From Actinomycetota bacterium (lineage in GTDB: Bacteria; Actinomycetota; Actinomycetes; UBA12327): DNA of 35,778 bases. Made by a program: the position numbers and the translations under genes. The DNA lies in assembly GCA_026392555.1 (NCBI GenBank), contig JAPLBW010000028.1:1-35778 (forward strand), given 5' to 3'. The notes below the pieces were generated by a model. That model saw nothing but the letters and a program-made list of their open reading frames with translations. It was not told the origin of the DNA and did not search any database. Positions 277 through 26,393 of the stretch are shown here, in pieces; within the stretch, counting starts at the first letter, position 1, and each line of letters opens with the position of its first letter.

Positions 277-558
277 TTAGTTGTCGTAGTCCACAACGAC
301 GCGGCTAGTCAGCAGCGGTCGCAACCAACCACCAAATTCCACGTGGTCTGGGTTGGCTTGGTAGGCCTTGAGGTCCTCGACCGAGTCGTGTGTGGTGGTC
401 AGGGCGAGGTCGTAGGAGACTTCTGAACCGACGACGTCCAGGCCAACATGCAAGGTCTTAATCTCGGGGATTTGGGTGACTAACGTCTCCAAGCGCGTCT
501 TGGCCTCGTCGCGGTTGGCGGAATCAGCAAACTTCATCAACACAATGTGAGTAATCAA
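277..558 (-). CDS. Dabb (stress-responsive alpha/beta-barrel) domain protein
   Basis: 93 aa with a TTG start preceded by GGAG. The N-terminus MITHIVLMKF and the size fit the Dabb ferredoxin-like family. It lies 3 nt downstream of the preceding gene, so the two are probably translationally coupled. Confidence 0.7.
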   Translation of the reverse strand: MITHIVLMKFADSANRDEAKTRLETLVTQIPEIKTLHVGLDVVGSEVSYDLALTTTHDSVEDLKAYQANPDHVEFGGWLRPLLTSRVVVDYDN

Positions 559-561
559 CGT

Positions 562-1203
562 CTAGCTCCGGTCCTTGATGTAATCGAGGGCTTGCTCTTC
601 GGACACAACTTCGGCGTACTTGGCTTGCAGGTCAAAGAGGTTGGCTTCGTGCGGACCAGGGTGGCGATCGCCCACGGCCTCTCGCACGATGATGGGGATA
701 AACCCGTAGGAAACCGTGTCGACGCCGGTTGCACGTACACAGCCTGAGGTCGACCAGCCGGTAATGAGTACGGTGTCGATGCCTTGAGCATGCAAGGTGT
801 TGGCAAGGTCAGTGCCGATGAAGGCTGATGGGTACTGCTTGGTAACGACGAGTTCGTCTCCAACAGGTTCCAGGCCTTCAACCCACTCGCCAAAGGGCGA
901 ACCTTTGTCGAACATGCGAAGAGCGGGAACCTTCTTGTAAAAGTAACCACCGTTAGCGCCGCCGGGTTCGTACTCCACGCGAGTCCAGACAACAGGAACG
1001 CCAGCGGCACGAGCGGCCACGACCAGCCGCTTCATGGATTCAGCAGATGACTCAACACCGGCATACAAGGGTGATTCGGGATCGATGTAGGCCTTGCACA
1101 CATCCACCATGAGCAAGATCGGGTGCTCTCCGAACGTCAGCGACCCATCAAAGGCTCCGACGTAGTTGGCCTGGACATCGCTGTCGAGGGGCTTGGCGCT
1201 CAT
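562..1203 (-). CDS. isochorismatase-family cysteine hydrolase (N-carbamoylsarcosine amidase / maleamate amidohydrolase-like)
   Basis: 213 aa with RBS GAGAGGAG. The D-K-C triad context is visible: LLMVDVCKAY, VVTKQYPSAF, ITGWSTSGCVRAT. Confidence 0.8.
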   Translation of the reverse strand: MSAKPLDSDVQANYVGAFDGSLTFGEHPILLMVDVCKAYIDPESPLYAGVESSAESMKRLVVAARAAGVPVVWTRVEYEPGGANGGYFYKKVPALRMFDKGSPFGEWVEGLEPVGDELVVTKQYPSAFIGTDLANTLHAQGIDTVLITGWSTSGCVRATGVDTVSYGFIPIIVREAVGDRHPGPHEANLFDLQAKYAEVVSEEQALDYIKDRS

Positions 1204-1312
1204 GAGGCTCCTCTCGGGCCGACCACGGAATAATCGTGGTCGGGGTAGGGTTGAAATCTAGTGGATGGCTACTCATGAAGGTGAAGCAAGTGGCCCGAGA
1301 AGATGAGGATGT

Positions 1313-2221
1313 ATGACTCGCGTCCAAGTGGTTGAAGTATCTGCCCGTGACGGGCTCCAAAATGACCCCGCGTTCTTGACCACCGAGCAAAAAGTTGAAC
1401 TGATCAGGCGAAGCATTGCGGCCGGCATTGATCGCGCTGAAGTAGCGTCTTTCGCCAACCCCAAGGCCGTGCCTCAGATGGCTGACGCTGAAGGTGTGCT
1501 CGAAGGCCTGGGAGTGATCGATGGGTTCTCCAGTATTGGTTTGGTGCTCAACACCAGAGGCTTTCACCGAGCAGTCACCACCAACGTCAAAGAAGTCAAC
1601 GTCGTCGTGGTGAGCACCGATACCTTCAGTCAGCGCAATCAGCGGATGGATTCGCTGGGGACGCTGGCTGTCTTGGAGGAGGTCATCCCGCTAGCCAGAG
1701 AAGCCGGCATCAAGGCGACCGTGACTTTGGCCGCCAGTTTTGGATGCCCCTTTGAAGGTGAAGTTTCCATTGACCGCACGGTGATGCTGGCTGAAAAAGC
1801 TGCAGAGTACGGCGTTGCCGAAATCGCCTTGGCAGACACCATTGGAGTCGCGGTACCGGCAGATGTAAAGCGACGATTCGAGGCAGTCAAAGCAGTCTCT
1901 GGAGACATTCCGTTACGCGCGCACTTCCACAACACCCGAAATACCGGTTATGCCAACGCGTTAGCCGCTGTGGAGGCCGGAGTATTTATCCTCGATGCCA
2001 GCTTGGCCGGTATTGGCGGCTGTCCGTTCGCGCCTAAGGCCACCGGAAATATCGCGACGGAGGACTTGGTGTACGCCTTGCACCGCAGCGGAATTGAAAC
2101 CGGCCTGGATCTCGACAAGCTACTGGAGGCCAGCGAGTGGTTTGCACAAATCCTGGAACGAAAGACGCCGTCACTGGTCAGTAAGGCCGGAGTCTTCCCG
2201 CCAGCGGAATTGCTTGCCTAG
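1313..2221 (+). CDS. hydroxymethylglutaryl-CoA lyase-like (HMGL family) enzyme
   Basis: 302 aa. It shows VEVSARDGLQN near the N-terminus, then HFHNTRNTGYANALAAVEAG and GIGGCPFAP, which are typical HMGL TIM-barrel motifs. Confidence 0.85.
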   Translation: MTRVQVVEVSARDGLQNDPAFLTTEQKVELIRRSIAAGIDRAEVASFANPKAVPQMADAEGVLEGLGVIDGFSSIGLVLNTRGFHRAVTTNVKEVNVVVVSTDTFSQRNQRMDSLGTLAVLEEVIPLAREAGIKATVTLAASFGCPFEGEVSIDRTVMLAEKAAEYGVAEIALADTIGVAVPADVKRRFEAVKAVSGDIPLRAHFHNTRNTGYANALAAVEAGVFILDASLAGIGGCPFAPKATGNIATEDLVYALHRSGIETGLDLDKLLEASEWFAQILERKTPSLVSKAGVFPPAELLA

Positions 2222-2251: not shown

Positions 2252-2287
2252 AAAAAAGACGCCCACCGAGGTGAGCGTCTTTTTTAT
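2252..2287. terminator. bidirectional rho-independent terminator between convergent genes
   Basis: The sequence is AAAAAAGACGCCCACcgagGTGAGCGTCTTTTTTA: a GC stem flanked by an A-run upstream and a T-run downstream. It sits between the stops at 2221 (+) and 2293 (-). Confidence 0.75.
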
Positions 2288-2292
2288 CTGGT

Positions 2293-3120
2293 CTAGTGAC
2301 TCATGACGGGCTCGGTGCGAGCCGGCACCTTGAAGTCAGCTGGGACTTCGTAAACAACCTCGTTGGTCTCAAGTTGTGCACGCAGTAGTTCGGATTGGCG
2401 ATCGCCAACCATGGGGCCAATGAGATCCCAGACGGGGTCAACCTCACGGTTGAAGATCAATCCTCGGTTGGCCGCATCGCGGGCTACAAGGTCAGTGTCC
2501 TGGATGGAGTCCAGAACGTTTTGAGGCAGACCTTCATCTACGAGCTGGAACCACCAGTCAAGATAAGCCTGAACGTTGACATCCATCGCTGGGTAGTTGT
2601 CGGCGTGAACGCGGTAGGCCAACATCCACTGCGACATGATCGACCGTTGGCGTGGAGTCAGCTGAGCCTCGGACAAGCCTGGATGCGATTTGCCGGCCGC
2701 GTAGGTGTCGTTTAAGTGGCCAAACACGTAGTCCATGTAGGTCCGGTGCGAACCAAGATCAACACGTGGGAGCAGATCCAAGTGCATCGCGTAGAACGGG
2801 GCGCTAAAGACCGAGTCAAAGGTCCAGTGTGGAATGGGTGATTCACCATCGGTAAATGCAAAGACCATATGACTGTCAAGCAGGAAGGGAGCAGGGGCAC
2901 CTGGCGGGTGAATCTCGTTGGTGATGGCGTGGTAGACGACCTTCTTCACCAAGTCATCACCAACCAAAACCCGAGTCATGCCCAGATCCTTGTCTCCAGC
3001 AGCGTTGGTAATGGTGTGGAATGGCCCACCATCTGCGCTGTGAAGTTCTTTCATCCCAAGGCGTGCCTTGATCTGTTCTAGCTTGTCGACATTGAGCTTT
3101 TGGGCCCAGCGTTCTGTCAT
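2293..3120 (-). CDS. ferredoxin-dependent bilin reductase (PcyA-like) superfamily protein, subfamily 1 (paralog of 8316..9074)
   Basis: 275 aa with RBS AAGGAA. The core LLDSHMVFAF..PIPHWTFDSV..MHLDLLPRVDL resembles PcyA LDILHCVMFP..LPLFGCDIV..ADLSP, including His and Asp at near-identical spacing. The C-terminal ARDAANRGLIFNREVDPVW..G..ELLRAQL resembles the FDBR tail. It starts 31 bp downstream of the Rieske oxygenase gene. Confidence 0.6.
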   Translation of the reverse strand: MTERWAQKLNVDKLEQIKARLGMKELHSADGGPFHTITNAAGDKDLGMTRVLVGDDLVKKVVYHAITNEIHPPGAPAPFLLDSHMVFAFTDGESPIPHWTFDSVFSAPFYAMHLDLLPRVDLGSHRTYMDYVFGHLNDTYAAGKSHPGLSEAQLTPRQRSIMSQWMLAYRVHADNYPAMDVNVQAYLDWWFQLVDEGLPQNVLDSIQDTDLVARDAANRGLIFNREVDPVWDLIGPMVGDRQSELLRAQLETNEVVYEVPADFKVPARTEPVMSH

Positions 3121-3151
3121 GTGGATTCCTTTTCTTTAGAGCAGAAGGGAC

Positions 3152-4363
3152 TTAGGACTCTTCGATTTCGTAGGCCGTCTGTCCGCCAGCGTTAGTAGCG
3201 GTTTCTACCTTGGATCCACCCAAGATGGCCCTCGAACTGACCTCCTTGTGCACCCAAGCATTCGCAAGTTCTGGATTGTTCTTGCGGGCTGGTGAAGGAA
3301 TAACTACTGCGACGTCGCGCGGTCCATCGCCAACGATCTGGTGCATGTCAATGCCCCAGCCCTGGTCCAGGAGTTCGTTGCGACGACGACGGTAGGTCGT
3401 TTGCAGGATGTCTGAGCGAATGTGCAGTTCATCCGAGAGCTGGTACGGCAAGATTTCCGGACGTTGCTTCTTGAGCACGCTGTCATCCTGCTTGAAGATG
3501 TCTTGGATGCGCTTGTGGGTGTCCTTGTCGGCCCATTCAGCCTTGATGAAGTCGCGCAGGCCGATGTACATCGAGCGCGTGTGGTTCTCGTCCACGGGGA
3601 CGTGGGCATCGATGAGCACCATGTTGCCGATCGGCAGGGGAACGTACAAAACGTTGATGTTAGGCAAGAAGTAACCGGCCTTGACGTGAGTAAGGACGGG
3701 TCCGTCGCCGACTTCCTTCTTGTACTTGAACTTGAACAACTTGCCCCACAGGCCACCCAAGTTCTTCGGCGGAGCCTTCAGCGGGATGGTGGAAAGACCT
3801 GACCAGGGGGTGGTCGTGACGTCAAAGTCGGGGACCGAGGGGTCCTTGATGTTTCCGAATCGACTGCCGTGGACGAACGCTGCGTGGGAGCCGTCCATGC
3901 CGTTTTCCAGGGCGCGCTCGTAGTTCACCTTCCAGTAGTAACTACCTTCAACGCGCTTGAACTGCGGGTCGTCAAGTTCGGGGATGTCGGGGATGGGGGG
4001 GCGTTCTTCTTCGGGAAGGTCACCCAGGAAGGTCCACACATAGCCGTACTTCTCAATGACGGGGTAGGAGTCAACGCGGGCTTTGGTAGGAATGTTGCGC
4101 TGTGGCTGAGCCGGAATTTTGGTGCACTGACCGTCGCCGCCGTACTGCCAACCGTGGTAAGGACACACGATGGAATCTTTGTCATCGGTCAACCAGCCTT
4201 CTGACAAGGGGCCACCGCGGTGGACACACAGGTCGCTTAAGCAATTGACTTGGCCCTTGGAGTCCCGGAACAACACGAAGTACTGTCCCAATGCCTGCAG
4301 CGACAAGGGGCGGTCAACAACGTTGGAGCTGAATTCAACGGGCCACCATAGATTCTTAAGCAC
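3152..4363 (-). CDS. Rieske [2Fe-2S] non-haem iron oxygenase, alpha-subunit type (PaO/Tic55/KshA-like class)
   Basis: 403 aa with a GTG start after AAGGACGG. The Rieske motif is CVHRGGPLSEGWL-x11-CPYHGWQYGGDGQCTKIP. The mononuclear-iron motif is ENGMDGSHAAFVH (E-N-x2-D-x-S-H-x2-F-x-H). Confidence 0.9.
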   Translation of the reverse strand: MLKNLWWPVEFSSNVVDRPLSLQALGQYFVLFRDSKGQVNCLSDLCVHRGGPLSEGWLTDDKDSIVCPYHGWQYGGDGQCTKIPAQPQRNIPTKARVDSYPVIEKYGYVWTFLGDLPEEERPPIPDIPELDDPQFKRVEGSYYWKVNYERALENGMDGSHAAFVHGSRFGNIKDPSVPDFDVTTTPWSGLSTIPLKAPPKNLGGLWGKLFKFKYKKEVGDGPVLTHVKAGYFLPNINVLYVPLPIGNMVLIDAHVPVDENHTRSMYIGLRDFIKAEWADKDTHKRIQDIFKQDDSVLKKQRPEILPYQLSDELHIRSDILQTTYRRRRNELLDQGWGIDMHQIVGDGPRDVAVVIPSPARKNNPELANAWVHKEVSSRAILGGSKVETATNAGGQTAYEIEES

Positions 4364-4587: not shown

Positions 4588-5871
4588 CTAGTCCTTCTTG
4601 GTGACCGCCGTGGTCATGCCCGCCCAGCCCTGACCGCTGGTGATCTGCTTAGCCACATCGAGCTTGCCTCGCTCGGCCGGGAAGGCCTGGACCAGACCCA
4701 TGGCCGCATCGCGAAGCGATCGGCCAATCTCGTTGTCCATCAGGGCGCCACTGGTGCCGCACATCTTGAGGGCGTTGGCAGTGACTTCAAAGGCACGCTC
4801 ACAAATGGTCCCCTTGGCCAATCGCCAGGTGCGTGCAACGTCAGCGTTGGGCAGCAACGGGGGTTCACTGGATTCCAGATCAATTTGACGGCGTAACCAC
4901 ATGTGGATGTCCTCGAGCTTTTGTTCAGTCTCGCCAATGAGGATTTGGTGCATCGAGCTCGTGGCGATTGATGCGCCGGTGTCACCGAACTTCATCGCCA
5001 TCGTGCGATCGAGTGCGTACTCGTAAGAATTACGCGCCACGCCGGCGTAGATAGAAGCGATAGCGATCTGGTTACCTACCCAGGTTCCGCGAGCAACTTG
5101 AGTCGCGCGTTGGAATCCACCATGCAGGGTCAGTGCCATGTCGTCAGGGACGAACGCCTCGTTAAGAATGCAGCCGTCGTTGTCCGATGCACGCATACCC
5201 AAACCGCTCCAGTGGGTGCGCGGTTCTACGCCATCTTGGGTTCGGTCGACCAAGAACAGGGCCAACCCATTGAGGTCGGTAGCACCTTCTAGGCGGGCGG
5301 TCACTAGGTAGTAGTCAGCAACAGATGATAGGCAGCCAAAGGACTTCGTGCCGCTGACGCTCCAGCCGCCGTCCACCTTCTTGGCTTCGGTTTGAATGAC
5401 GACATTGGCCGTTTCAGCCTTCACCGATTCACTAGCGAAGTTCCCGATCCACAGTGCGTCGGTTCCCATGAAGGTCAAAATCTTTTCCGCAAAAGCTCGA
5501 ACTACGGGGATTTCTTCATCGGTGTACAAACCGGCATCAATAGCACCGAGCGGCAACATGCCGCGGGATGACGAGGAGTTGTGGAAGAAGTACGCAAGTG
5601 CTGTTGAGGCACATGCCGTTCCCATGACGTAGGTCGCGGCACAGAGGTCGCGCAACGTCCCGCCCATGCCGCCGTACTCGGTGGGAATCACCAGACCAAG
5701 AAGTCCGGACTCGGCGATGGCCTTGGCATTGCCTGGAGCAAAGCGTCCTTCGGCATCAGCAATGGGTGCATTCGCGCGCAGGGTGGGCAGGATGCTTTCG
5801 ACGACAGCGGCTCGCTCGCGCTCGGCATCGGTCATGCGGTCGAGGATGCGTTCGGCAATGAGTTGCGTCAT
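4588..5871 (-). CDS. acyl-CoA dehydrogenase-fold flavoprotein (dehydrogenase or flavin monooxygenase type)
   Basis: 427 aa with RBS GGAGA. ESGLLGLVIPTEYGGMGG, the middle beta-domain (GGWSVSGTKSFG) and a C-terminal helical domain are typical of the ACAD family. Confidence 0.8.
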   Translation of the reverse strand: MTQLIAERILDRMTDAERERAAVVESILPTLRANAPIADAEGRFAPGNAKAIAESGLLGLVIPTEYGGMGGTLRDLCAATYVMGTACASTALAYFFHNSSSSRGMLPLGAIDAGLYTDEEIPVVRAFAEKILTFMGTDALWIGNFASESVKAETANVVIQTEAKKVDGGWSVSGTKSFGCLSSVADYYLVTARLEGATDLNGLALFLVDRTQDGVEPRTHWSGLGMRASDNDGCILNEAFVPDDMALTLHGGFQRATQVARGTWVGNQIAIASIYAGVARNSYEYALDRTMAMKFGDTGASIATSSMHQILIGETEQKLEDIHMWLRRQIDLESSEPPLLPNADVARTWRLAKGTICERAFEVTANALKMCGTSGALMDNEIGRSLRDAAMGLVQAFPAERGKLDVAKQITSGQGWAGMTTAVTKKD

Positions 5872-6037
5872 GTGATCTCCAGGTCATCTGAGGTCGATGG
5901 GTAAATGCGTAACGTTTTTGGCGAAGAGCGTTTCATACTCTTCTGACGAAACCCTAGGGGCTTTTGACCCTAACGGGACGGTCGGGTGGCCGCTTGTGGC
6001 ATCGTCTAAGTTCTGTGTGAATTTATGGAGGTAGGCC

Positions 6038-6487: not shown

Positions 6488-6510
6488 GGCCCTACGGAAA
6501 AAGGAAATAA

Positions 6511-6543
6511 GTAAGCCGCCCTTCGTGGCGAAGAGCGGCTTAC
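6511..6543. terminator. hairpin terminator between convergent genes
   Basis: GTAAGCCGCccTTCGtggCGAAgaGCGGCTTAC. An A-rich tract on the left gives a T-tract for the minus-strand transcript. Confidence 0.6.
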
Positions 6544-6560
6544 TCAATGTCTTGTCGTGC

Positions 6561-7238
6561 TTATGGCTTGACTTGCACCCAAACTTCGTGGGTTGCGTCG
6601 TCCCACGTGGCGTATTCGAATTCCACGCCTAGGTCCTTGGCGTAGCCCTCAAAGCGAGGAACGACGTAGTTTTCCCACAGCCACTGCTCAGTCATATCGA
6701 ACTGACCGATGCGTGAACCGGCGGCAAGGCAGGTCTTGAAGGGGGAAATCCACGTGCGTCGCATGCCATCTTCGGAGCGAGTGGTCTCTAGAACCATGTG
6801 GTAGTGGCAGGAGCTGTAGCCCGCAACAGCGAGGACCGCGAGTTCCTTCTTTCCCGACACGGCGATGAGTTGGCCCATGCGCTCGTTGACCGGCTTCATG
6901 GTCTTCACATCATGTGCGTTCCAGTCGTCCATCAGATCGCGCTCTTTAGCAAACTGGACAACCTGCAAGTGCAACTTAATGACCGCATCGTTGAGTTCGT
7001 GCTGGTAAGGCACTTGCTCGTGCAACGTGCGCATGACCATCTTCACGCCAATGGCGAATTCCTTCTCGAGTCCGGCGATGACATCAAAGTCCGTCTGCTC
7101 GGAAGTCAGGTACCGCTCAGCAATGGCAGTGAAGTCAGGCATTCCGCCGGGAGGTCCGCCAGCACCGGGTGGGGGTCCACCTGCTGTGGCGTGGGCGGGT
7201 GGTCCGCCAGGCTTTGTGGTTTCGGGTGCTTGCGTCAT
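6561..7238 (-). CDS. hypothetical protein with a Pro/Gly-rich N-terminus, co-transcribed with the RCCR-like gene
   Basis: 225 aa with RBS GAAGAGG, starting 27 bp after the upstream stop. It has an N-terminal PGGPPAHATAGGPPPGAGGPPGG tract. I recognise no family. Confidence 0.55.
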   Translation of the reverse strand: MTQAPETTKPGGPPAHATAGGPPPGAGGPPGGMPDFTAIAERYLTSEQTDFDVIAGLEKEFAIGVKMVMRTLHEQVPYQHELNDAVIKLHLQVVQFAKERDLMDDWNAHDVKTMKPVNERMGQLIAVSGKKELAVLAVAGYSSCHYHMVLETTRSEDGMRRTWISPFKTCLAAGSRIGQFDMTEQWLWENYVVPRFEGYAKDLGVEFEYATWDDATHEVWVQVKP

Positions 7239-7265: not shown

Positions 7266-8078
7266 TTAGGAAACGGATGGTCGAGGAATCTGGCGGTCAG
7301 CTCCCCAAAGTGCATTGACCAAACGCTCTTCAATGTCAGGTCCAAGTCGGCGAGCGGCGAGGACGTTTGCAGGGTCTCGCTTAACGATGGTACGGCGTAA
7401 AATCAGATCGCGCTCGGCCAATTCAGCACGTTTTTCGACCGGGACAGGCGTAGCTTCCTTGACCCAGCCAAGCCAGATGTCCACCAGGCGGTGGGCCTCG
7501 GTGCGCATGAGTTCCCAGTTCTCCTCGTTGTTGTCCAACGAGGAGCAGATAGCGACGTCGCTGAGTACCTGGCGGATGTAGGCGCTACGGCTAACGAACT
7601 GGGTCAGACGTGGGTCCACGCGCAATTCCAGGTAGTGCTCGTTGCGTGGCTCGATGTACTTGTCGAAGTAGTCGACATTGGTGTTCAAGTCCTGACGCGC
7701 AGGAGTGTCTAAGTAAATCCACGGGCGAGGGGAGGTGCCGAAGGCGATACCCAAGTGCGGAACGTCGATGTGCGGGCCAAGCCAGACCGTCACGTGCACG
7801 TTGACGAACGCGCGCTTGAAGTCGCCGATCCAGGCGTGCGCCAGCCAGTCAACTTCGGGGCCGGTATAGGCATTGAGTGATCCACCAGGCCCCTCAACAC
7901 CGTCAGCGCCATAGTGCTCAAGGTCTGCGTAGCCGGGGTCACGGTGGAGCTCGAAGACCGGGCGAATCTTGTCCATCAATTCGTTAGAGATCTTCCAGCC
8001 GTTTTCCCAAACGTCCGTGACGTCGAGGGCGCCTGCGCCATCAACCATGTCCGCTATGAGAGCAACTGTTTCCGCCAT
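7266..8078 (-). CDS. red chlorophyll catabolite reductase (RCCR)-like / FDBR superfamily protein, subfamily 2 (paralog of 11662..12486)
   Basis: 270 aa with RBS GAGGAA. The blocks GPEVDWLAHAWIG, VDVPHLGIAF, DLNTNVDYFDKYIEP, FVSRSAYIRQVLSDVA and ERDLILRRTIVKRDPANVLAARRLGPDIEERLVNALWG match, in order, my recollection of plant RCCR blocks (IDFVIGSWIH / APNFVVEL / DLVLNPDYLKEYY / YVSPSLFVRSAFSPTA / RRDKSFRRKSIEDDLDLQFPRMFGEEV). Confidence 0.6.
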   Translation of the reverse strand: MAETVALIADMVDGAGALDVTDVWENGWKISNELMDKIRPVFELHRDPGYADLEHYGADGVEGPGGSLNAYTGPEVDWLAHAWIGDFKRAFVNVHVTVWLGPHIDVPHLGIAFGTSPRPWIYLDTPARQDLNTNVDYFDKYIEPRNEHYLELRVDPRLTQFVSRSAYIRQVLSDVAICSSLDNNEENWELMRTEAHRLVDIWLGWVKEATPVPVEKRAELAERDLILRRTIVKRDPANVLAARRLGPDIEERLVNALWGADRQIPRPSVS

Positions 8079-8315
8079 GTTGGATTCCTCGTTTCGGGTG
8101 GAGCAAAAGTGGGGATTGGACGTTGCCTAAGAGTTAGTCTGTTGTCCAAGCCTTCGTGGTTAGTGGCGATACCCTTCCATATCAGGCCTAGCAAAGACAC
8201 CCCGGTTGCCGCCTTTTTACCCTTCGGGCAGGCAACACGGTTATTTCAGGGCTAAAGTCACGGCTTAACCAGCATGGCCCTCACGCCGGGGGCACCACCG
8301 ATGGAGGAGTTTTTC

Positions 8316-9074
8316 ATGAGTTTGCCCAAGGACCTTGCTGACCGCACGCTAGTGGAGATGGTCGAGCGCACCGGCGCGGTTGAAGTCCACGGCGAAGACG
8401 GTGGCGCTTACTTGACCTTGATGAGCCCGTTTGGTCCGGACCCCGTTGGCAAGATGCGGGTGTTCAAGTCGGACACGGTGAAGAAGATCGTCTACTGCGG
8501 GTTGACAGTGGAAAAATTCAAGATGGACACTCACATGATCTTCGGCTTTACCGCAGAAGACTCGCCTTTGCCGCACTTCACCTTGGACTCGGTGAACGCC
8601 AACGGGAGTTTGGCCTTTCACCTTGACCTGATCACGAAGGCGGAGTTGTCTGTTCATGTTCCCTATATGGACTACGTCTATGGCGGTTTGACAGACACGT
8701 TCAATGACACGATCAAGTGGGAAGGGCTCTCACGCGCGCAAGTTGGACCTCGTCAGTACGCAATGATGTCGCCATGGATGTTGGTTAGCCGCGCCACTGA
8801 ACCCACCTTCCGCCGGTTCTCAGGTGAGGATGATGACCAGGGCCGTGGCCCCGTCAAGACGTACTTGAATTACTGGCTTGACTTGGTCGATGCGGGGGTT
8901 CCCGATGATGTCGCGGCGACGGTGAGCACGGACGAAATCATGGCTCACGATCACAAGCTGCGGTACAACTTGTTCAGCCCCGAGGTTGACCCGGTCTGGC
9001 GTGACGTGGGCAAGATCGTGGGCGAAGACACTGCCGAGAAGATGCGCCAGATGCTCTTGTCGAATGCCTGGTAG
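8316..9074 (+). CDS. FDBR (PcyA-like) superfamily protein, subfamily 1 (paralog of 2293..3120)
   Basis: I chose the ATG at 8316 because of the strong RBS GGAGGAG 6 nt upstream and the length match to the paralog; the ORF track starts it at 8274. The core is MDTHMIFGF..PLPHFTLDSV..FHLDL, and the tail is SPEVDPVWRDVGKIVGEDTAEKMRQML. Confidence 0.6.
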   Translation: MSLPKDLADRTLVEMVERTGAVEVHGEDGGAYLTLMSPFGPDPVGKMRVFKSDTVKKIVYCGLTVEKFKMDTHMIFGFTAEDSPLPHFTLDSVNANGSLAFHLDLITKAELSVHVPYMDYVYGGLTDTFNDTIKWEGLSRAQVGPRQYAMMSPWMLVSRATEPTFRRFSGEDDDQGRGPVKTYLNYWLDLVDAGVPDDVAATVSTDEIMAHDHKLRYNLFSPEVDPVWRDVGKIVGEDTAEKMRQMLLSNAW

Positions 9075-10714: not shown

Positions 10715-11488
10715 ATGAACTCAGGGCTTGCACAAATCCTCGCAGTGATTGCGGCCGGCTTTAGTGCGGGCGCCATTAATGCGGTGGCTGCTGGGGGAAC
10801 TTTGATTGCCTTCCCAGTGTTGTTGTGGGCCGGTGTTCCGCCGTATTCGGCAAATATTGCCTGCAGCATCGGGTTGCTCCCCGGATATGCCAGCGGTGCT
10901 TATGGCTATCGCCACGTCATGGATCAAGTCGCAGCTATTCGCACGCGGTTAATCGTTGTCGTTTCCCTTGGTGGCGTAGTGGGAGCGTTGTTATTGATCG
11001 TTACACCTCGTGATTCGTTCACCGCCGTTGTGCCGTACTTGATTTTGCTCTCGGTCGGGTTATTTGCTGCGCGTCCTTGGTTAACACGCATGCTTCAAGC
11101 GCGCGGTTCGGGGCCACAGTTAGCCAGCGCCCGCATGAGCGTTGCTTTGGGTGTTTGCATCTTCCTCGCGGGCGCGTATGGCTCGTACTTTGGTGCCGCT
11201 TTGGGGATCGTGTTGTTGACCATTTTGGGCACGCTTTTGCATTCCAACATGAAGGCCAGCAATGGCATGAAGTCAGTGCTGTCGTTTTGCTGCGTAGCTG
11301 CTGGTGCTTGCCTCTTCATCGTGGCCGGCCGCGTGGATTGGCTCCCCGCAGCCCTCTTGGTGGCATCCTCCACTGTCGGTGGCTTTGTCGGTGCTCGCGT
11401 CGGCTTACGAGTCCCAGACGTGGCCTTGCGTTGGATCGTCATTGTCATGGGAACGGCTGCCTCAATTGGCCTTTTCCTCAAAGCCTGA
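10715..11488 (+). CDS. TauE/SafE (TSUP) family anion/sulfite exporter-like membrane protein
   Basis: 257 aa, polytopic. AGFSAGAINAVAAGGTLIAFPVLL at the N-terminus and a repeated half later (VGGFVGARVG) are typical of the TSUP family. Confidence 0.75.
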   Translation: MNSGLAQILAVIAAGFSAGAINAVAAGGTLIAFPVLLWAGVPPYSANIACSIGLLPGYASGAYGYRHVMDQVAAIRTRLIVVVSLGGVVGALLLIVTPRDSFTAVVPYLILLSVGLFAARPWLTRMLQARGSGPQLASARMSVALGVCIFLAGAYGSYFGAALGIVLLTILGTLLHSNMKASNGMKSVLSFCCVAAGACLFIVAGRVDWLPAALLVASSTVGGFVGARVGLRVPDVALRWIVIVMGTAASIGLFLKA

Positions 11489-11586: not shown

Positions 11587-11613
11587 CACACAGAAATGAA
11601 CGGATTCTGTGTG
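11587..11613 (+). promoter_or_regulatory. stem-loop in an intra-operon spacer (attenuator, terminator or operator candidate)
   Basis: CACACAGAA-atgaacgga-TTCTGTGTG is a perfect 9-bp stem. It sits among three CGGATT(n2)GTG-like direct repeats in the 173-bp gap upstream of 11662. Confidence 0.3.
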
Positions 11614-11661: not shown

Positions 11662-12486
11662 ATGGGCGAGACCATGGTGTCTGTTGAAGAGTTGGTAGCC
11701 CAAAGTGGCCCCGTTGATGTCACGTGGGTCTATGAACAATGGCGCGAGAAGTTGGCCGTAATGATGGCCAAACTGCAGGATCGCTTTGAACTCGTGCCAG
11801 ATGAGTCCACCAATGGTTTAGAAATTGCTGGCGAAATCGGTTCGGGGATTCACGGGCAAGTGCAGTGCTTTGCTGGTCCGGAGATTGACTGGATGGTCTA
11901 TTCGTGGATGGCAGACCCCAAGAACGGATTTGCCAACATGCACATCACGATCAGCCCAGGACCACAGGTAGACGTTCCCCTCTTCGGCATGGCTTTTGCT
12001 TGCTTTGGTGAGCGTCCGTGGGGATTTATGGATTTTGGTGCCCGCCGCGAAGCAGCCGTTAACACCGACTATTACTTCAAGTACTACGAGCCGCTTAATG
12101 AGCGCTGGCTCAATGTTCGACGGGACAATCCGCAACTCGACTGGTTCATGTCGCCATCAGGGTATGTGCGCCAGGTGCTTTCGCCGATCGCTTTTTGTTA
12201 CTCCGGACCGCCTGAGCAAAAGACGGTTGACCTCATCCAAGGTGAAGCCGATTACATGCTTGACGAGTGGATGAAGATGTTCGATGCGGCCGACCCGGTT
12301 CCTGCGGATCAGCAGGACGAGTTGTGCCAATACACCGAAGACTGGCGTAGCACGGTGGCTCAGCTTGACCCAGCCAACAGCATCGCTGTGAAGCTCTTTG
12401 GTCAAGACATCTGTGACCAATTGGTGATGGCGCTGGGTGGAACGCAGCGCCAGTTACCCCATGCCGGCAAGTTCTGGACCAAGTAG
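11662..12486 (+). CDS. RCCR-like / FDBR superfamily protein, subfamily 2 (paralog of 7266..8078)
   Basis: 274 aa with RBS GAGGAGG 5 nt upstream. The blocks GPEIDWMVYSWMAD, VDVPLFGMAF, AVNTDYYFKYYEP, FMSPSGYVRQVLSPIA and LDPANSIAVKLFGQDICDQLVMALGG are collinear with 7266..8078. Confidence 0.6.
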   Translation: MGETMVSVEELVAQSGPVDVTWVYEQWREKLAVMMAKLQDRFELVPDESTNGLEIAGEIGSGIHGQVQCFAGPEIDWMVYSWMADPKNGFANMHITISPGPQVDVPLFGMAFACFGERPWGFMDFGARREAAVNTDYYFKYYEPLNERWLNVRRDNPQLDWFMSPSGYVRQVLSPIAFCYSGPPEQKTVDLIQGEADYMLDEWMKMFDAADPVPADQQDELCQYTEDWRSTVAQLDPANSIAVKLFGQDICDQLVMALGGTQRQLPHAGKFWTK

Positions 12487-12504
12487 AAATCCGACGAGAC
12501 GACA

Positions 12505-13500
12505 ATGAGTGAACAGCAGAATCTGGTCCGGTCCCTGTGGGATGCAGTCAAGGTAGAAGGTTTGGATGCGCCGTACGACACTGCGCACCTGCGGATTTAT
12601 TACGCAGCAACGAATCCGAACACTCTCGAAGTCGACATGTCGGGAATTATGCCGGCTGCCAAGCGGTCGCCGGCACCCGTCGTGTTGTTTCTTGGTGGCG
12701 TCAACATTGGTCAGGATTCGCTGCGTTGGTTGATGATCAACTTGGTGGAAGCCGGCTACGTGTGCGTCACTTTCGATCTGGTGGGCGAACAAATGCCGGG
12801 CTTCTACGGCACCACCCCAGGTCTTGATTTATCCGCTCTGCAAGCTGGTGTGTATGGCACGCGACCACCATCGATTGCCATTCAGCCCATCCTTGACCGC
12901 CTGGCTGTTCTCAATGCGGAGGGAACCTTGTCGGGCGTCATGGATCTTGATCGACTCGTCCTTGGTGGCCACTCCGGTGGCGGAACGGTCGCCTTGGAGT
13001 CGGCCCGTCGGTCGTACTTCCCGTCGTTGCGCGCTGTAGTCGCGTATGCGGCTCACACGGTGCCGGCTCAGGTTCTCGGTCACCCCGATGGCACGGTTCT
13101 CGAGTGCGCCTCGGATATTCCTGCCTTGTTGATGGCAGGCACCGAAGACGGAACGATGAAGCGCAGCGCAGCTCGGTACCCAGGGCAAGACCCAGCAACG
13201 TTCAATCCGATCGTCATGACTTTTGAGCAGGGAATTCCGGGCGGTCGCGATGATGCTTGGTTTGTTCAGTGGGATGGAGCCAACCATTTTGGGATGGGCT
13301 ATCCATTGGACCCGACCTGTGCTCGTGGATTTCTCGATAGCGAACCCACCACTGATCCAGCGCAGACCAGGGCTGATCTCACAGCGCTAGTTGTGGATTT
13401 TCTTAACGCATACGTTCGCGATGACTCGCAGGCTCTGGCTGCTCTAGAGAAGTTGCTAACTGATCCGCCTAAGACCATCGGGCAAGTTCGCTGCCGCTAG
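12505..13500 (+). CDS. alpha/beta hydrolase, chlorophyllase / PAF-acetylhydrolase / dienelactone-hydrolase-like
   Basis: 331 aa, starting 18 bp after the RCCR-like gene. PVVLFLGGVN..AGYVCVTFD is followed by the nucleophile elbow LVLGGHSGGG (GHSxGG, as in chlorophyllase GHSRGG). Confidence 0.6.
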   Translation: MSEQQNLVRSLWDAVKVEGLDAPYDTAHLRIYYAATNPNTLEVDMSGIMPAAKRSPAPVVLFLGGVNIGQDSLRWLMINLVEAGYVCVTFDLVGEQMPGFYGTTPGLDLSALQAGVYGTRPPSIAIQPILDRLAVLNAEGTLSGVMDLDRLVLGGHSGGGTVALESARRSYFPSLRAVVAYAAHTVPAQVLGHPDGTVLECASDIPALLMAGTEDGTMKRSAARYPGQDPATFNPIVMTFEQGIPGGRDDAWFVQWDGANHFGMGYPLDPTCARGFLDSEPTTDPAQTRADLTALVVDFLNAYVRDDSQALAALEKLLTDPPKTIGQVRCR

Positions 13501-13711
13501 CAGGTGCGGGTCATCGGTGCGGCGGCGTGGCCTATCGCCACCGCGCTAGGCACATTGTCCGTGGAGTTAGGTGTGGATTAGCCCAGATTCTCGGCTAGGG
13601 GTCTACGACCCAAGACCTGAACTGGGTTCGGGTCTAGACTAAAAACCAGTGAATGTTTCTATCTTAAGAACCGGCCGCAGTGTGTGAAAATTTCTGAGAG
13701 GTAATCAACTC

Positions 13712-14707
13712 ATGACCGATCTTGCGGCTAATTCGGATGCTGCAAATGCACCCATTTTTGTCAACTCTGGCGTAGCGGCGCCTAGTGAATGGCAGAAGAT
13801 CATTGAAGGCACGTGGCACGGCCGCCCGTCGATTTTTGACGGCGATGGCACGCACGTTGGTTACGAGAATGTGGCGCGAGCGAGTGAGTTTTCTAATGGG
13901 CAGACGCACTACTGGATGAACACCAAGTTTGACGGCGGTGGGCACCTGCGTAGTCGCCTTGAGCTCGGTGGAATGTTCTCCTTCGGTGTCATTGACTCCG
14001 ATCAAAACCGGATTTACACGGGGCCCGACTTCTTTGGAGCGGGGCAGCCGTATGGAACGTTCGTTGACTCGAACTACTACTCGCAGGGATGGCAGGCCGA
14101 CCTCGTTACCTGGAACTACATCATCCCGGGCACCGATGTGCAGGTGTATTCGTCGGTTTGTTACGACGGCTGGACGCCAGCAATCGTCTTCGACGGCTTG
14201 TACCTGCGCACCTTTGACCACGAGACTAATCCTGAGACCCAAAAGCGCATTCAAGAGTTCAAGGATCAGGAAGAAGCCCTCGGGCAGATGAATTTTGTGA
14301 CCCCGACGAAGGAAAAGGGAGCATGGAAGGGTTCTGTTGAAGTTTTCGGCGCTGATCAGAAGTTGATCGGTCACAGCGAAGTCGTGATTGAGCATGAGCC
14401 CATTGACTTGATTCGCTCGCGGCAAACGGTGACATGGAGTGGGGTCTTGGAGCGGCAGTACACCTTTGAGCGTGTGCGCCTTGAGCACAAGACCATGTTT
14501 CACGGCCCTGACGTATGGGGCAACCAGATGGCGTATGGCCGTTGTGCTTTCACCGCTCAGCACTTCACCAATGAAGCCACCAAGATCAAGGGCCGCGAGT
14601 TCATGCTGAACTACGACTACGAATTGGTCGTTAACTGGCAGGTCTTTGATGGGAATGCCCTGACGCACGTCGTCGTGGGCGTGCTGACCTGGGAACCTGC
14701 GGTCTGA
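13712..14707 (+). CDS. conserved hypothetical two-domain protein (tandem paralog 1)
   Basis: 331 aa, roughly 50% identical by eye to 14848..15825. Each half begins with a W-x-G strand (GTWHGRPSIFD; GAWKGSVEVFG), suggesting two calycin/lipocalin-like barrels. The antisense 381-aa ORF is Arg-rich and was rejected. Confidence 0.6.
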   Translation: MTDLAANSDAANAPIFVNSGVAAPSEWQKIIEGTWHGRPSIFDGDGTHVGYENVARASEFSNGQTHYWMNTKFDGGGHLRSRLELGGMFSFGVIDSDQNRIYTGPDFFGAGQPYGTFVDSNYYSQGWQADLVTWNYIIPGTDVQVYSSVCYDGWTPAIVFDGLYLRTFDHETNPETQKRIQEFKDQEEALGQMNFVTPTKEKGAWKGSVEVFGADQKLIGHSEVVIEHEPIDLIRSRQTVTWSGVLERQYTFERVRLEHKTMFHGPDVWGNQMAYGRCAFTAQHFTNEATKIKGREFMLNYDYELVVNWQVFDGNALTHVVVGVLTWEPAV

Positions 14708-14728
14708 CCCAGCCCTTGTCGGCTCTAT

Positions 14729-14761
14729 CCTTTGACCTGACCTTTGACCTGACCTTTGAAG
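14729..14761 (+). repeat. 12-bp direct tandem repeat (CCTTTGACCTGA x2.7) in the spacer between the tandem paralogs
   Basis: It reads directly as CCTTTGACCTGA CCTTTGACCTGA CCTTTGAAG. It begins 22 nt after the stop at 14707. Confidence 0.85.
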
Positions 14762-14847
14762 CCTTGTTTTGCGTGATTGACGGGCGATGTGGTCGCAGTT
14801 CAGGCACACTAAGGTGGCTTGACGACACGATCAGGAAGTAGGGATAG

Positions 14848-15825
14848 ATGACCGCGGTGAGTGATCGCCAGAGCAGTGCAGCTAGCGAGCCCAGCGAATG
14901 GCAAAAGAAGATCGCGGGGGAATGGCATGGTCGTCCCGGTTTGTTTGATCCTGAGGGCAACCACGTCGGCTATGAGCGCATTGCGCGCGCCAGTGAGGTA
15001 TTGCCTGACGGCACCACGGTTTACTGGATGAATGGCACCTTGGACGGTTCCGGGCCACTGCGCAACCGTTTCCAACTCGGCGCCGACTTCCGCTTTGAAG
15101 TCATCGACTCCGATGAGAACCGCGTGTACATGGGTCCTGACTTTTATGGCACGGGTCAGCCCTACGGCTTGTTCGTTGATGCGCACTACTACTCACCCGG
15201 ATGGCAAGCCGACCTTCGTACATGGAACCAAGTCCTTCCGGACGGCAAGACCCAGGTTTACTCATCGGTCTTGCACGACGGCTGGAGCGTGTGCGCGGTA
15301 TTTAACGGCTTGTACAAGGTTGTTGATGTTGGCGCGAATGATCAAGAGACCCAAGGCTTCATTGATTCATGGATCCGGGACGAAACAGAGCGCGCGCCTC
15401 GCCCTCATGTCTTGCCAACCAAGCAAAAGGGTGCGTGGACCGGAACTCTTGAGGTCTATGACGCCGCCTCACGGGAGAAGGTAGGCGACAACTTCGTCAC
15501 CATCGACCATGAGCCTTTGTCGCTCGTACGTACCAAGCAGACGATCACCTGGGAAGGTGCTATCAACCGCAAGTACACTTTTGAGCGCTTGCGCCGCGAT
15601 CAAAACACGACCTATGACGGCCCGGACATCATGGGAAATGCGCGTAACTACGGACGTGCCTTATTCACGAGCCAGCACTTCACCGGTGGTGACGTGTGGA
15701 AGATTAAGGGACGCGAATACCTGCTCGATGACTCGCAGTCGTTGAGCATTGTGTGGGAAGCATTTAAGGGCGACATGCTCACTAACGTTATTTTCGGACA
15801 GCTGGATTGGAAGGCACAAGCATGA
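14848..15825 (+). CDS. conserved hypothetical two-domain protein (tandem paralog 2)
   Basis: 325 aa. Blocks shared with paralog 1 include SEWQKKI.GEWHGRP, VIDSDENR.Y.GPDF.G.GQPYG.FVD..YYS.GWQADL.TWN, KGAW.G..EV and KIKGRE. Confidence 0.6.
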   Translation: MTAVSDRQSSAASEPSEWQKKIAGEWHGRPGLFDPEGNHVGYERIARASEVLPDGTTVYWMNGTLDGSGPLRNRFQLGADFRFEVIDSDENRVYMGPDFYGTGQPYGLFVDAHYYSPGWQADLRTWNQVLPDGKTQVYSSVLHDGWSVCAVFNGLYKVVDVGANDQETQGFIDSWIRDETERAPRPHVLPTKQKGAWTGTLEVYDAASREKVGDNFVTIDHEPLSLVRTKQTITWEGAINRKYTFERLRRDQNTTYDGPDIMGNARNYGRALFTSQHFTGGDVWKIKGREYLLDDSQSLSIVWEAFKGDMLTNVIFGQLDWKAQA

Positions 15826-26033: not shown

Positions 26034-26393
26034 AGGGGTGAGCGTCCTTTGTGGGGCAGTAGGGAAGTGGCCGAGCCTAGGAACGCGCCTCGTCCTTAAA
26101 ACGGCTGATCCAGGTGCTAGTTGATCTGGATTTATTACACTAAGTCCGGCAGGCGCCCGCGTCAACGAGGTTGGACGACACCGATTTCGCACAATCCTTG
26201 GCAAGTGGAAGGTAAACGGCAGATGGGTTGACGCTGAACGATGCCTGAATCTATTGTTCACACTCCGGAACGTTAGGCATTGCCGGATGCTTCAGATTGC
26301 AGTGTTTCTTCCCCTCATGTGGTGTGGCGGGCAAGAACGCGACAATTGCCTTACCCACCTCGTTCCTGACGAGCCGTCGAATGGATACATAGC

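What the first reader, a model, noticed from the sequence alone, without database searches (positions are those of the whole stretch)
2293..4363. Rieske oxygenase co-transcribed with an FDBR-fold protein, mirroring the PAO-RCCR oxygenase/reductase couple
The oxygenase shows CVHRGGPLSEGWL..CPYHGWQYGGDGQCTKIP and ENGMDGSHAAFVH, the same E-N-x2-D-x-S-H-x2-F-x-H iron motif I recall in PaO (ENVSDPSHIDFAH). It is followed after 31 bp by an FDBR-like gene, and the pair ends at a clean bidirectional terminator (2252-2287). In plants PAO opens the porphyrin ring and RCCR reduces the product in a channelled reaction. A physically linked oxygenase and bilin-reductase-like pair in a bacterium is the strongest single argument for macrocycle cleavage followed by reduction.
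Basis: partly seen in the sequence, partly recalled or inferred. Interest (0 to 1): 0.8.

Follow-up and report, generated by a model that had tools for sequence, protein, structure and literature searches.

The report
Bacterial oxygenase with RCCR-like reductase
A bacterial iron-sulfur oxygenase gene sits directly in front of a gene whose protein folds like the plant enzyme that reduces ring-opened chlorophyll; the pair recurs across bacterial phyla inside a larger operon that probably breaks down chlorophyll-type pigments, a process still unproven in bacteria.

Summary
Genes 3152-4363(-) and 2293-3120(-) lie 31 bp apart and end at a strong bidirectional terminator. The first encodes an alpha-only Rieske oxygenase (Rieske + VanA_C domains). 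The second (A1) has no Pfam hit, but its confident AlphaFold model matches Arabidopsis RCCR best (TM 0.70, E 3e-10), then HY2, PebB, PebA and PcyA.

The PAO-specific argument fails. No PaO domain is detectable, and the cited iron motif also occurs in the caffeine demethylase NdmA and in SxtT.

The functional coupling holds up. The oxygenase lies directly upstream of the A homolog in 48 of 72 genome loci from Actinomycetota, Chloroflexota, Acidobacteriota and Cyanobacteriota. One metagenomic ORF fuses the two.

The pair belongs to a conserved operon: true RCCR homolog, esterase-like hydrolase, Rieske, A, DUF3598-like barrel protein, SDR. Amidases, flavin monooxygenases and CoA-transferase/lyase genes flank it.

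The best reading is catabolism of a chlorophyll- or bilin-type tetrapyrrole. Ring opening by the Rieske enzyme is inferred, not shown.

A March 2026 preprint already proposes prokaryotic PAO/RCCR structural homologs for chlorophyll a degradation. It has no synteny analysis and no ring-opening biochemistry.

The parts
3152..4363 (-). Alpha-only (alpha3-type) Rieske non-heme iron oxygenase, 403 aa. Rieske ligands are C46/H48/C67/H70. The iron motif is E153-x3-D157-x2-H160-x4-H165.
   Evidence: Pfam Rieske 80 bits plus VanA_C 73 bits, no PaO. Best PDB relatives are SxtT/GxtA, NdmA, phthalate dioxygenase and DdmC. No CxxC motif and no TM segment.
3121..3151 (-). 31-bp intergenic gap carrying the ribosome-binding site (AAGGA) of A1. 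No hairpin.
2293..3120 (-). A1: RCCR/FDBR-fold protein, 275 aa, member of a family covered by no Pfam or NCBIfam model.
   Evidence: AF2 pLDDT 93.4. Foldseek best hit AtRCCR, E 3e-10, TM 0.70. hhalign to the B family 98.8%. Family of 307 clusters at 50% identity.
2252..2287 (.). Bidirectional intrinsic terminator shared with the convergent HMGL-like gene.
4588..5871 (-). Acyl-CoA-dehydrogenase-fold protein, a candidate oxygenase component of a two-component flavin monooxygenase. It lies upstream of the Rieske gene here and directly downstream of A in gammaproteobacteria.
   Evidence: A flavin reductase is conserved in 28 of 80 loci.
7266..8078 (-). B1: bona fide RCCR-family homolog.
   Evidence: PF06405 47.8 bits against a cutoff of 24.9. 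AtRCCR E 2.5e-9. B-family profile against AtRCCR 8.7e-22.
8274..9074 (+). A2: paralog of A1 (about 38% identity), followed by MFS (9099-10706) and TauE (10715-11488) transporter genes.
11662..12486 (+). B2: second RCCR/FDBR-family paralog. It heads the remnant of the canonical operon.
   Evidence: PF06405 27.1 bits, PF05996 29.3 bits. Gene order.
12505..13500 (+). Alpha/beta-fold serine hydrolase (GHSGG elbow), esterase-like.
   Evidence: Abhydrolase_6 1.2e-6. Only a sub-threshold Chlorophyllase hit (E 0.0067). Weak polyesterase similarity. Conserved between B and Rieske in 30 of 80 loci.
13712..15825 (+). Two tandem paralogs (13712-14707 and 14848-15825) of a double beta-barrel protein with a DUF3598/BFA1-like fold.
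   Evidence: AF2 pLDDT 90.4. Foldseek hits BFA1 5yvf at 1.9e-8 and DUF3598 2o62 at 1.1e-7. A>Lip>SDR order in 42 of 80 loci.
15807..16655 (+). Classical short-chain dehydrogenase/reductase.
16655..17356 (+). Conserved small membrane protein.
17368..18114 (+). Asp/Glu-racemase-superfamily protein (Amdase/EutA-like). Candidate isomerase or decarboxylase for dicarboxylate products.
277..2221 (.). Accessory genes that travel with the cluster: Dabb (277-558 -), isochorismatase-family amidohydrolase (562-1203 -) and HMG-CoA-lyase-like (1313-2221 +). The 3' end of an aldehyde dehydrogenase lies at 32-238.

Best explanation
The Rieske oxygenase and A1 are a coupled oxygenase-reductase pair in a catabolic operon for a tetrapyrrole pigment, most likely a chlorophyll derivative of the pheophorbide type. 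Proposed order, all steps inferred: the esterase-like hydrolase removes an ester. The Rieske enzyme, supplied by host ferredoxin and reductase, oxygenates the macrocycle and opens it as PAO does. The two RCCR-fold proteins A and B each reduce one double bond of the reactive linear product. The DUF3598-like barrel protein and the SDR handle or modify the catabolite. Flavin monooxygenases then cut it into monopyrrolic imides. CN-hydrolase and isochorismatase-type amidases, the racemase-fold protein, aldehyde dehydrogenase, CoA-transferase and HMG-CoA-lyase-like enzymes would take those imides to central metabolism. Shown here: the folds, the homologies, the conserved gene order and the fusion. 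Not shown: any substrate or any reaction.
For: A1 has the RCCR fold, with AtRCCR as best match. Besides RCCR, the significant matches are FDBRs (E 3.8e-7 to 1e-3) and coproporphyrinogen oxidase HemF (E 6.5e-5 to 6.7e-4), so all 50 hits at E<=0.001 are tetrapyrrole enzymes. A is homologous to B, and B is a clear RCCR homolog over nearly its full length (E 8.7e-22). A-family invariant D102 and D228 align with RCCR Glu154 and Asp291. Rieske>A adjacency occurs in 48 of 72 informative loci across four phyla. It is confirmed from the Rieske side in Nonomuraea, Actinoplanes and another actinomycete. A cyanobacterium has a tight Rieske-A-B unit. A single ORF fuses Rieske, VanA_C and A. In this window Rieske-A1 has moved as a unit out of the canonical B-hydrolase-Rieske-A-Lip-SDR order. 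No heme oxygenase domain appears in five Pfam-annotated neighbourhoods, which leaves the Rieske enzyme or the flavin monooxygenases as the oxygen-dependent step. A conserved esterase-like hydrolase fits an esterified substrate such as chlorophyll derivatives, because heme-derived bilins carry no esters. Conserved amidases and C-N hydrolases fit nitrogen-ring mineralisation. Independent preprint 10.64898/2026.03.19.712979 predicts PAO, RCCR, PPH and CLH structural homologs co-occurring in the same families (Nocardioidaceae, Micromonosporaceae, Streptosporangiaceae). It reports chlorophyll a loss in Shewanella acanthi cultures.
Against: The oxygenase lacks the PaO domain, and its nearest characterised relatives are demethylases or hydroxylases of non-tetrapyrroles. 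No Mg-dechelatase was seen, and no ferredoxin or reductase is encoded in the window. In Halieaceae, Microbulbifer and Pseudomonadales loci A sits next to the ACAD-fold gene, and the Rieske gene is distant or absent within 10 kb, so A does not strictly need this oxygenase. The hydrolase has no significant similarity to chlorophyllase or PPH. The preprint's experiment documents only conversion of chlorophyll a to pheophytin a, which also happened abiotically at pH 4.5. It shows no ring opening. The E154/D291 mapping rests on weak alignments for A (E about 1) and on my memory of the RCCR structure papers.
Confidence: 0.5

Rival explanations
1. The substrate is an already linear tetrapyrrole, such as biliverdin, phycobilins from cyanobacterial prey or heme-derived bilins. 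A and B act as bilin reductases. The Rieske enzyme hydroxylates the bilin or cleaves a methine bridge into dipyrroles. There is no macrocycle opening.
For: The A and B families also match HY2, PebB and PebA. Two sequential reductases mirror PebA/PebB. The downstream amidase and monooxygenase set fits either source. The cluster occurs in aquatic heterotrophs and in some cyanobacteria.
Against: B prefers RCCR over FDBRs by 13 orders of magnitude. The conserved esterase-like hydrolase has no obvious role on free-acid bilins. No heme oxygenase is linked to the cluster.
Confidence: 0.2
2. Another enzyme opens the ring, namely the ACAD-fold or FAD-dependent monooxygenase, or it opens non-enzymatically. 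The Rieske protein is then a tailoring hydroxylase or demethylase acting on the catabolite next to A, comparable to TIC55 in plants.
For: VanA_C-type enzymes are typically demethylases or hydroxylases. An ACAD-fold gene and a flavin reductase are conserved, and in gammaproteobacteria ACAD is the gene adjacent to A.
Against: Rieske>A is the most conserved adjacency (49 of 80 loci) and occurs as a fusion. The minimal cyanobacterial unit is Rieske-A-B with no flavin enzyme next to it.
Confidence: 0.12
3. The pathway degrades a non-tetrapyrrole N-heterocycle or aromatic compound, and the RCCR-fold proteins have been recruited to a new substrate class.
For: The oxygenase family is generic. The amidase, Asp/Glu-racemase-fold protein and HMG-CoA-lyase-like genes resemble heterocycle pathways such as nicotinate degradation (my own knowledge). 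No direct chemical evidence exists here.
Against: Every significant structural match of A1 is a tetrapyrrole enzyme. Two distinct RCCR-fold families are retained together across phyla.
Confidence: 0.13
4. The pair is biosynthetic and makes a bilin-like chromophore or signal, as the HO-FDBR couples do.
For: FDBR relatives in heterotrophs (pre-PcyA) are biosynthetic (PMC10151467).
Against: No globin, phytochrome, V4R or HO partners are present. The context is transporters, hydrolases, amidases and CoA-lyase genes typical of catabolism.
Confidence: 0.05

Closest known systems
Plant pheophorbide a oxygenase (PAO/ACD1) with red chlorophyll catabolite reductase (RCCR/ACD2)
   Same: A Rieske-type mononuclear-iron oxygenase is paired with an RCCR-fold protein. 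B1 passes the RCCR Pfam threshold, and A1 matches the AtRCCR structure best. An Asp291-equivalent is invariant in A and B, and a Glu154-equivalent acid is invariant in A.
   Different: The oxygenase carries VanA_C rather than the PaO domain, with no C-terminal CxxC and no membrane anchor. There are two distinct reductase families, A and B, each duplicated here. The genes form an operon with esterase, barrel protein, SDR and amidase genes. Activity is untested.
Heme oxygenase with ferredoxin-dependent bilin reductases (PcyA, PebA/B, HY2, pre-PcyA clusters)
   Same: The logic is an O2-dependent ring opener followed by FDBR-fold reductase(s). The fold is shared. FDBR relatives exist in heterotrophic bacteria (PMC10151467, PMC13446030).
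   Different: No HO, BBAG globin, V4R or Fe-S partners are present. A1 fails PF05996, and B2 is below its cutoff (29.3 against 31). The context is catabolic.
Alpha3 Rieske oxygenases of the VanA, DdmC, NdmA, SxtT, KshA and phthalate group
   Same: Domain architecture, iron motif and alpha-only organisation.
   Different: Similarity stops after about residue 185, so the substrate-binding half is divergent. None of those enzymes is linked to FDBR-fold proteins.
Predicted prokaryotic chlorophyll a degradation genes (SH-PAO, SH-RCCR, SH-PPH, SH-CLH; Aliyu et al., bioRxiv 2026, 10.64898/2026.03.19.712979)
   Same: The same idea and the same host families. The S. acanthi hits lie within about 11 kb.
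   Different: The preprint works at genome-level co-occurrence. It gives no operon or synteny analysis, no mention of Rieske class, of the second (A) family, of the DUF3598-like protein or of the downstream amidase and CoA genes. I could not verify that its SH-PAO and SH-RCCR are these families.
Cyanobacterial RCCR-like genes (Npun_R3277 and Npun_R3279; Thomas et al. 2009, PMC2716323)
   Same: RCCR-family proteins in prokaryotes, in duplicate and near each other.
   Different: They were regarded there as an anomaly of symbiotic Nostoc and Anabaena. Here the family is widespread in heterotrophs and is linked to an oxygenase.

Membership tests
PAO / TIC55 / PTC52 (LLS1-related) oxygenases | N-terminal Rieske [2Fe-2S] domain (CxH...CxxH) | tested here: met
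   PF00355 80 bits. C46-x-H48 and C67-x2-H70.
PAO / TIC55 / PTC52 (LLS1-related) oxygenases | Mononuclear iron motif E/D-x3-D-x2-H-x4-H | tested here: met
   E153NGMD157GSH160AAFVH165 is present. The motif is not discriminating, because it also occurs in NdmA, SxtT and phthalate dioxygenase.
PAO / TIC55 / PTC52 (LLS1-related) oxygenases | C-terminal PaO domain (PF08417) | tested here: not met
   No hit at E<=10 in the window protein or in five relatives. VanA_C scores 73-106 bits instead.
PAO / TIC55 / PTC52 (LLS1-related) oxygenases | C-terminal CxxC motif and membrane anchor (feature recalled from the literature) | tested here: not met
   Cys only at positions 41, 46, 67 and 80. Maximum 19-aa Kyte-Doolittle hydropathy is 1.38.
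PAO / TIC55 / PTC52 (LLS1-related) oxygenases | Phylogenetic placement with PAO rather than VanA or KshA references | not tested
   No PAO, TIC55 or CMO reference sequences could be obtained with the tools. Only the domain-level test was run.
RCCR family (PF06405) | Sequence match above the Pfam gathering score | tested here: not met
   A1 has no hit, and 18 of 45 family members hit only weakly (best 1.6e-5). Neighbour B1 passes (47.8 against 24.9) and B2 passes (27.1).
RCCR family (PF06405) | RCCR/FDBR alpha/beta/alpha sandwich fold | tested here: met
   pLDDT 93.4. AtRCCR 3agb E 3.2e-10, TM 0.70 over 274 columns.
RCCR family (PF06405) | Acidic pair equivalent to AtRCCR Glu154 and Asp291 (role recalled from Sugishima et al.) | tested here: inconclusive
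   A: invariant D102 and D228 align with E154 and about D291. B: Ala at the E154 position, and invariant D235 aligns with D291. The A-to-RCCR alignment is weak (E about 1), although the path via B is consistent.
RCCR family (PF06405) | Ferredoxin-dependent reduction of RCC to pFCC | not testable with these tools
   Biochemistry is required.
FDBR (PF05996: PcyA, PebA/B, HY2) | Sequence match above the gathering score | tested here: not met
   A1 has none. B2 scores 29.3, below the cutoff of 31.
Alpha3 Rieske oxygenases with VanA_C catalytic domain | Rieske plus VanA_C, with no beta subunit gene | tested here: met
   No Ring_hydroxyl_B-type gene in the window.

The most novel reading that the evidence does not exclude
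This is the core of a widespread bacterial pathway that mineralises chlorophyll-type tetrapyrroles completely. A VanA_C-class Rieske oxygenase, recruited independently of plant PAO, opens the macrocycle. Two distinct RCCR-fold reductases (the unannotated A family and the RCCR-like B family) act in sequence. Flavin monooxygenases, imide and amide hydrolases and a CoA-dependent lyase route then convert the pyrrole rings to central metabolites. Plant RCCR would then be a descendant of an ancient bacterial catabolic reductase.
Probability: 0.3. Interest if true: 0.85.

Novelty: new variant of a known kind. Interest (0 to 1): 0.7.

Why it matters
Chlorophyll is made and destroyed on a vast scale, yet no bacterial enzyme that opens or reduces its macrocycle has been demonstrated. 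The fate of phycobilins is equally unknown. This locus gives a compact, conserved and testable gene set. It is present in culturable Nocardioides, Mumia, Actinoplanes, Nonomuraea and Microbulbifer strains. It includes a protein family (A) that no database model recognises and a natural oxygenase-reductase fusion. If confirmed, it would define the bacterial counterpart of the PAO/RCCR step. It would also show that a different Rieske lineage performs that step, and it would bear on the origin of RCCR and the FDBRs.

Tried and rejected
- **PAO membership:** the PaO HMM was searched at E<=10 on six proteins and gave no hit.
- **Motif as a PAO signature:** rejected, because NdmA and SxtT carry it.
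- **Pre-PcyA-type FDBR cluster (HO, BBAG, V4R, Fe-S):** the context does not match.
- **Direct sequence link of A to solved structures:** phmmer found nothing, and the profile reached RCCR only at E about 1. The link needed structure prediction and profile-profile comparison through the B family.
- **Chlorophyllase or PPH identity of the hydrolase:** only a sub-threshold Chlorophyllase hit (E 0.0067, 15.7 bits against a cutoff of 26) and weak polyesterase hits.
- **Maleate isomerase or NicF identity of the Amdase-like and isochorismatase-like proteins:** the best NCBIfam hits (EutA, arylmalonate decarboxylase, BiuH, RutB) are all far below their cutoffs.
- **Shared operator motifs among the cluster's intergenic regions:** only chance-level 9-mers plus one palindrome.
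- **Terminator between the ACAD-fold gene and the Rieske gene:** a GC hairpin without a U-tract that is not better than shuffles (z -1.0), so the 5' limit of the transcription unit is undecided.
- **Role of Glu154/Asp291:** could not be verified in the paper library.
- **ORF calling in 70% GC loci:** gave many shadow ORFs. Family counts were therefore read only for clusters confirmed by Pfam or tblastn.
- **Preprint gene identities:** its supplement gave no gene lists.
Full report
**Observation**

The window is a 35,778-bp contig of an NCBI 'Actinobacteria bacterium' MAG. Near-identical contigs come from other uncultured actinobacterial MAGs, including actinobacterium acAMD-2. On the minus strand, ORF 3152-4363 (403 aa) is followed after 31 bp by ORF 2293-3120 (275 aa). 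Both have ribosome-binding sites. The gap has no stable structure. The pair ends at a hairpin flanked by A- and T-tracts at 2252-2287. It folds at -22.7 and -28.9 kcal/mol on the two strands, and none of 200 shuffles does as well. The quoted Rieske and iron motifs are present.

**What the two proteins are**

The 403-aa protein has a Rieske domain (80 bits) and a VanA_C catalytic domain (73 bits). Its best solved relatives are SxtT/GxtA, NdmA/B, phthalate dioxygenase, DdmC, KshA and carbazole dioxygenase. These are the alpha-only Rieske oxygenases, and similarity ends near residue 185.

The PaO domain that marks PAO, TIC55 and PTC52 is not detectable in it or in five relatives even at E<=10. 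It has no C-terminal CxxC and no hydrophobic anchor. It therefore says only 'Rieske oxygenase'.

The 275-aa protein (A1) matches no Pfam or NCBIfam model and no PDB sequence. Its homologs are all 'hypothetical'. With a 45-sequence alignment AlphaFold2 gives pLDDT 93.4. Foldseek ranks Arabidopsis RCCR first (E 3e-10, TM 0.70). HY2, PebB, PebA, PcyA and PebS follow, and coproporphyrinogen oxidase comes more distantly.

**Other RCCR-fold genes in the window**

The window holds three more proteins of this fold. B1 (7266-8078) passes the RCC_reductase threshold. B2 (11662-12486) hits both RCC_reductase and Fe_bilin_red. A2 (8274-9074) is a paralog of A1.

A profile of the B family matches AtRCCR over almost its whole length (E 8.7e-22). 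The A and B profiles are homologous (hhalign 98.8%, E 8e-17).

Through these alignments the A-family invariant D102 (HWTFDSV) falls on RCCR Glu154, and D228 (EVDPVW) falls at or next to Asp291. B has Ala at the first position and an invariant Asp at the second. That these two residues are the RCCR catalytic pair is my recollection of Sugishima et al. I could not verify it in the library.

**Conservation of the pair**

531 species genomes encode an A relative, and the best 80 loci were fetched. Of the 72 loci with enough upstream sequence, 48 have the Rieske homolog directly upstream on the same strand.

Recurrent gene orders among the 80 loci:

| Order | Loci |
|---|---|
| Rieske>A | 49 |
| A>Lip>SDR | 42 |
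| B>hydrolase>Rieske>A | 30 |
| B>hydrolase>Rieske>A>Lip>SDR | 27 |

'Lip' is the 325-331-aa protein at 13712-15825. Its model (pLDDT 90.4) is a double beta-barrel resembling BFA1 and DUF3598. Hosts include Nocardioides, Mumia, Nanopelagicales-type MAGs, Anaerolineales, Chloroflexus, Roseiflexus, Aridibacter and cyanobacteria.

Starting instead from Rieske homologs, Nonomuraea, Actinoplanes and a third actinomycete show the following order, mostly with overlapping stop and start codons: Dabb< CN_hydrolase> RCC_reductase> hydrolase> Rieske> A> Lip> SDR> (membrane)> Amdase.

A Xenococcaceae cyanobacterium carries a bare Rieske-A-B unit. One marine-type metagenomic contig encodes a single 642-aa ORF fusing Rieske, VanA_C and A.

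In Halieaceae, Microbulbifer and Pseudomonadales, A is followed by the ACAD-fold gene and an isochorismatase-family gene. There the Rieske gene is distant or absent within 10 kb.

In the window itself the canonical operon survives as B2-hydrolase-Lip-Lip-SDR-membrane-Amdase (11662-18114) without Rieske-A. That pair sits 7 kb away behind the ACAD-fold gene, so it moved as a module.

**Wider gene set**

Clustering all ORFs of the loci, checked by Pfam, gives the following counts out of 80 loci:

| Family | Loci |
|---|---|
| Aldehyde dehydrogenase | 43 |
| FAD-dependent monooxygenase | 31 |
| Flavin reductase, often fused to an HMGL-like domain | 28 |
| Tandem CN_hydrolase | 28 |
| CoA-transferase III | 21 |
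| PEP-mutase/ICL-type lyase | 14 |
| Aconitase-family hydratase | 14 |
| GntR regulator | 13 |

Microbulbifer also has a rubredoxin-reductase fusion. No heme oxygenase domain is listed in any of the five Pfam-annotated neighbourhoods.

**Literature**

FDBR relatives in heterotrophs (pre-PcyA) sit with HO, globins, V4R and Fe-S proteins and are biosynthetic. Neither paper mentions Rieske partners. Bacterial RCCR-like sequences have served only as outgroups there. Cyanobacterial ones were noted in 2009 as an oddity.

A bioRxiv preprint of March 2026 (10.64898/2026.03.19.712979) used structure-based searches to predict prokaryotic PAO, RCCR, PPH and CLH homologs. It found the RCCR-type set mainly in Actinomycetota, Pseudomonadota and Cyanobacteriota, and it names Nocardioidaceae, Micromonosporaceae and Streptosporangiaceae. 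It reports slower chlorophyll a loss in a Shewanella acanthi double hydrolase mutant.

That preprint contains no synteny analysis and no evidence for ring opening or RCC reduction. Conversion to pheophytin also occurred abiotically at low pH. The idea is therefore already public but unproven. Whether its HMMs cover the A family or this Rieske class could not be checked.

**Mechanism**

The best-supported reading (about 0.5) is that Rieske and A1 form a coupled oxygenase-reductase step in tetrapyrrole catabolism, most likely of de-esterified chlorophyll derivatives. B would be a second reductase. The flanking flavin monooxygenases, amidases and CoA-lyase genes would dismantle the pyrrole units.

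What is shown is fold, homology, linkage and fusion. Substrate, ring opening and electron donors are inferred. Rivals are:
- a bilin substrate without macrocycle opening (0.2);
- the Rieske enzyme as a tailoring enzyme, with another oxygenase opening the ring (0.12);
- a non-tetrapyrrole heterocycle (0.13);
- biosynthesis (0.05).

**Comparison, novelty and score**

It works like PAO/RCCR and like HO/FDBR. It is not a member of the PAO family by the domain test, and A1 fails the RCCR and FDBR sequence thresholds while meeting the fold test.

I rate it a new variant of a known kind, for these reasons:
- a different Rieske class;
- an unannotated RCCR-fold family that is small (307 clusters among 1.84 billion representatives);
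- two reductase families in one operon.

Interest is 0.7. The system addresses how bacteria destroy chlorophyll-type pigments and is testable in cultured strains. The concept has been anticipated by a preprint, and no chemistry is established.

**Limits**

- Only the 80 loci most similar to A were analysed.
- No PAO reference sequences were available for a tree.
- The residue mapping depends partly on weak alignments.
- Co-transcription is inferred from spacing.

Noticed in passing
L083 3635-5563 (protein P0400; JGI contig Ga0115545_1004159): A single 642-aa ORF fuses a Rieske domain, a VanA_C domain and an A-family RCCR-fold domain. It is a natural 'Rosetta stone' for the pair. It was seen on one contig only.
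   Followed up: partly
Proteins P0404, P0379 and P0457: The A domain recurs fused to NAD(P)-binding Rossmann domains (Epimerase, NAD_binding_10, NmrA). P0457 (1286 aa) also has ankyrin repeats and a FYVE finger, so it looks eukaryotic. This hints that some A-family reductases draw electrons from NAD(P)H rather than ferredoxin.
   Followed up: no
window 7266-9074 and 11662-15825: The A, B and DUF3598-like genes are each present twice in this contig (A1/A2 and B1/B2 at about 38% identity, the two barrel proteins at about 50%). Only one Rieske gene is present. B1 and A2 are transcribed divergently from a 195-bp region.
   Followed up: partly
window 11587-11613 and 6011-6019: A palindrome CACACAGAA-N9-TTCTGTGTG lies upstream of B2. 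The half-site TTCTGTGTG recurs in the intergenic region between the ACAD-fold and SnoaL-like genes. It may be an operator. No regulator gene was found in the window, although GntR/UTRA regulators occur in 13 related loci.
   Followed up: no
window 14729-14758: A 12-bp unit CCTTTGACCTGA is repeated about 2.5 times in tandem between the two DUF3598-like genes.
   Followed up: no
window 6508-6546 (- strand): A very strong terminator-like hairpin (18-bp stem, T-tract) follows the unknown 225-aa gene 6561-7238. That gene has a Pro/Gly-rich N-terminus and is conserved only in the closest relatives (L001, L003, L006).
   Followed up: no
L085 9203-10447 (Actinoplanes sp. CA-142083 chromosome): An IS110-family transposase is inserted exactly between the Rieske gene and the A gene of an otherwise canonical operon.
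   Followed up: no
L001 and L004 (CAMCVY010000012.1, CALQPL010000041.1): Contigs 85-99% identical to this actinobacterial locus at the protein level are deposited under the name 'Bifidobacterium breve' MAG. This is almost certainly a mislabelled bin.
   Followed up: no
window 277-558 and loci L084-L086: A 93-aa Dabb (dimeric alpha/beta-barrel) protein is conserved divergently upstream of the CN_hydrolase/RCCR operon in actinomycetes. Its fold superfamily includes cofactor-independent oxygenases and IsdG-type heme degraders, so a catalytic role is conceivable.
   Followed up: no
window 18121-26261: Two paralogous lipoprotein-type solute-binding proteins (18121-19545 and 24594-26261) flank fused ABC permease/ATPase genes next to the cluster. 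A homologous binding protein lies downstream of the operon in 22 of 80 related loci, so it is a possible uptake system.
   Followed up: partly
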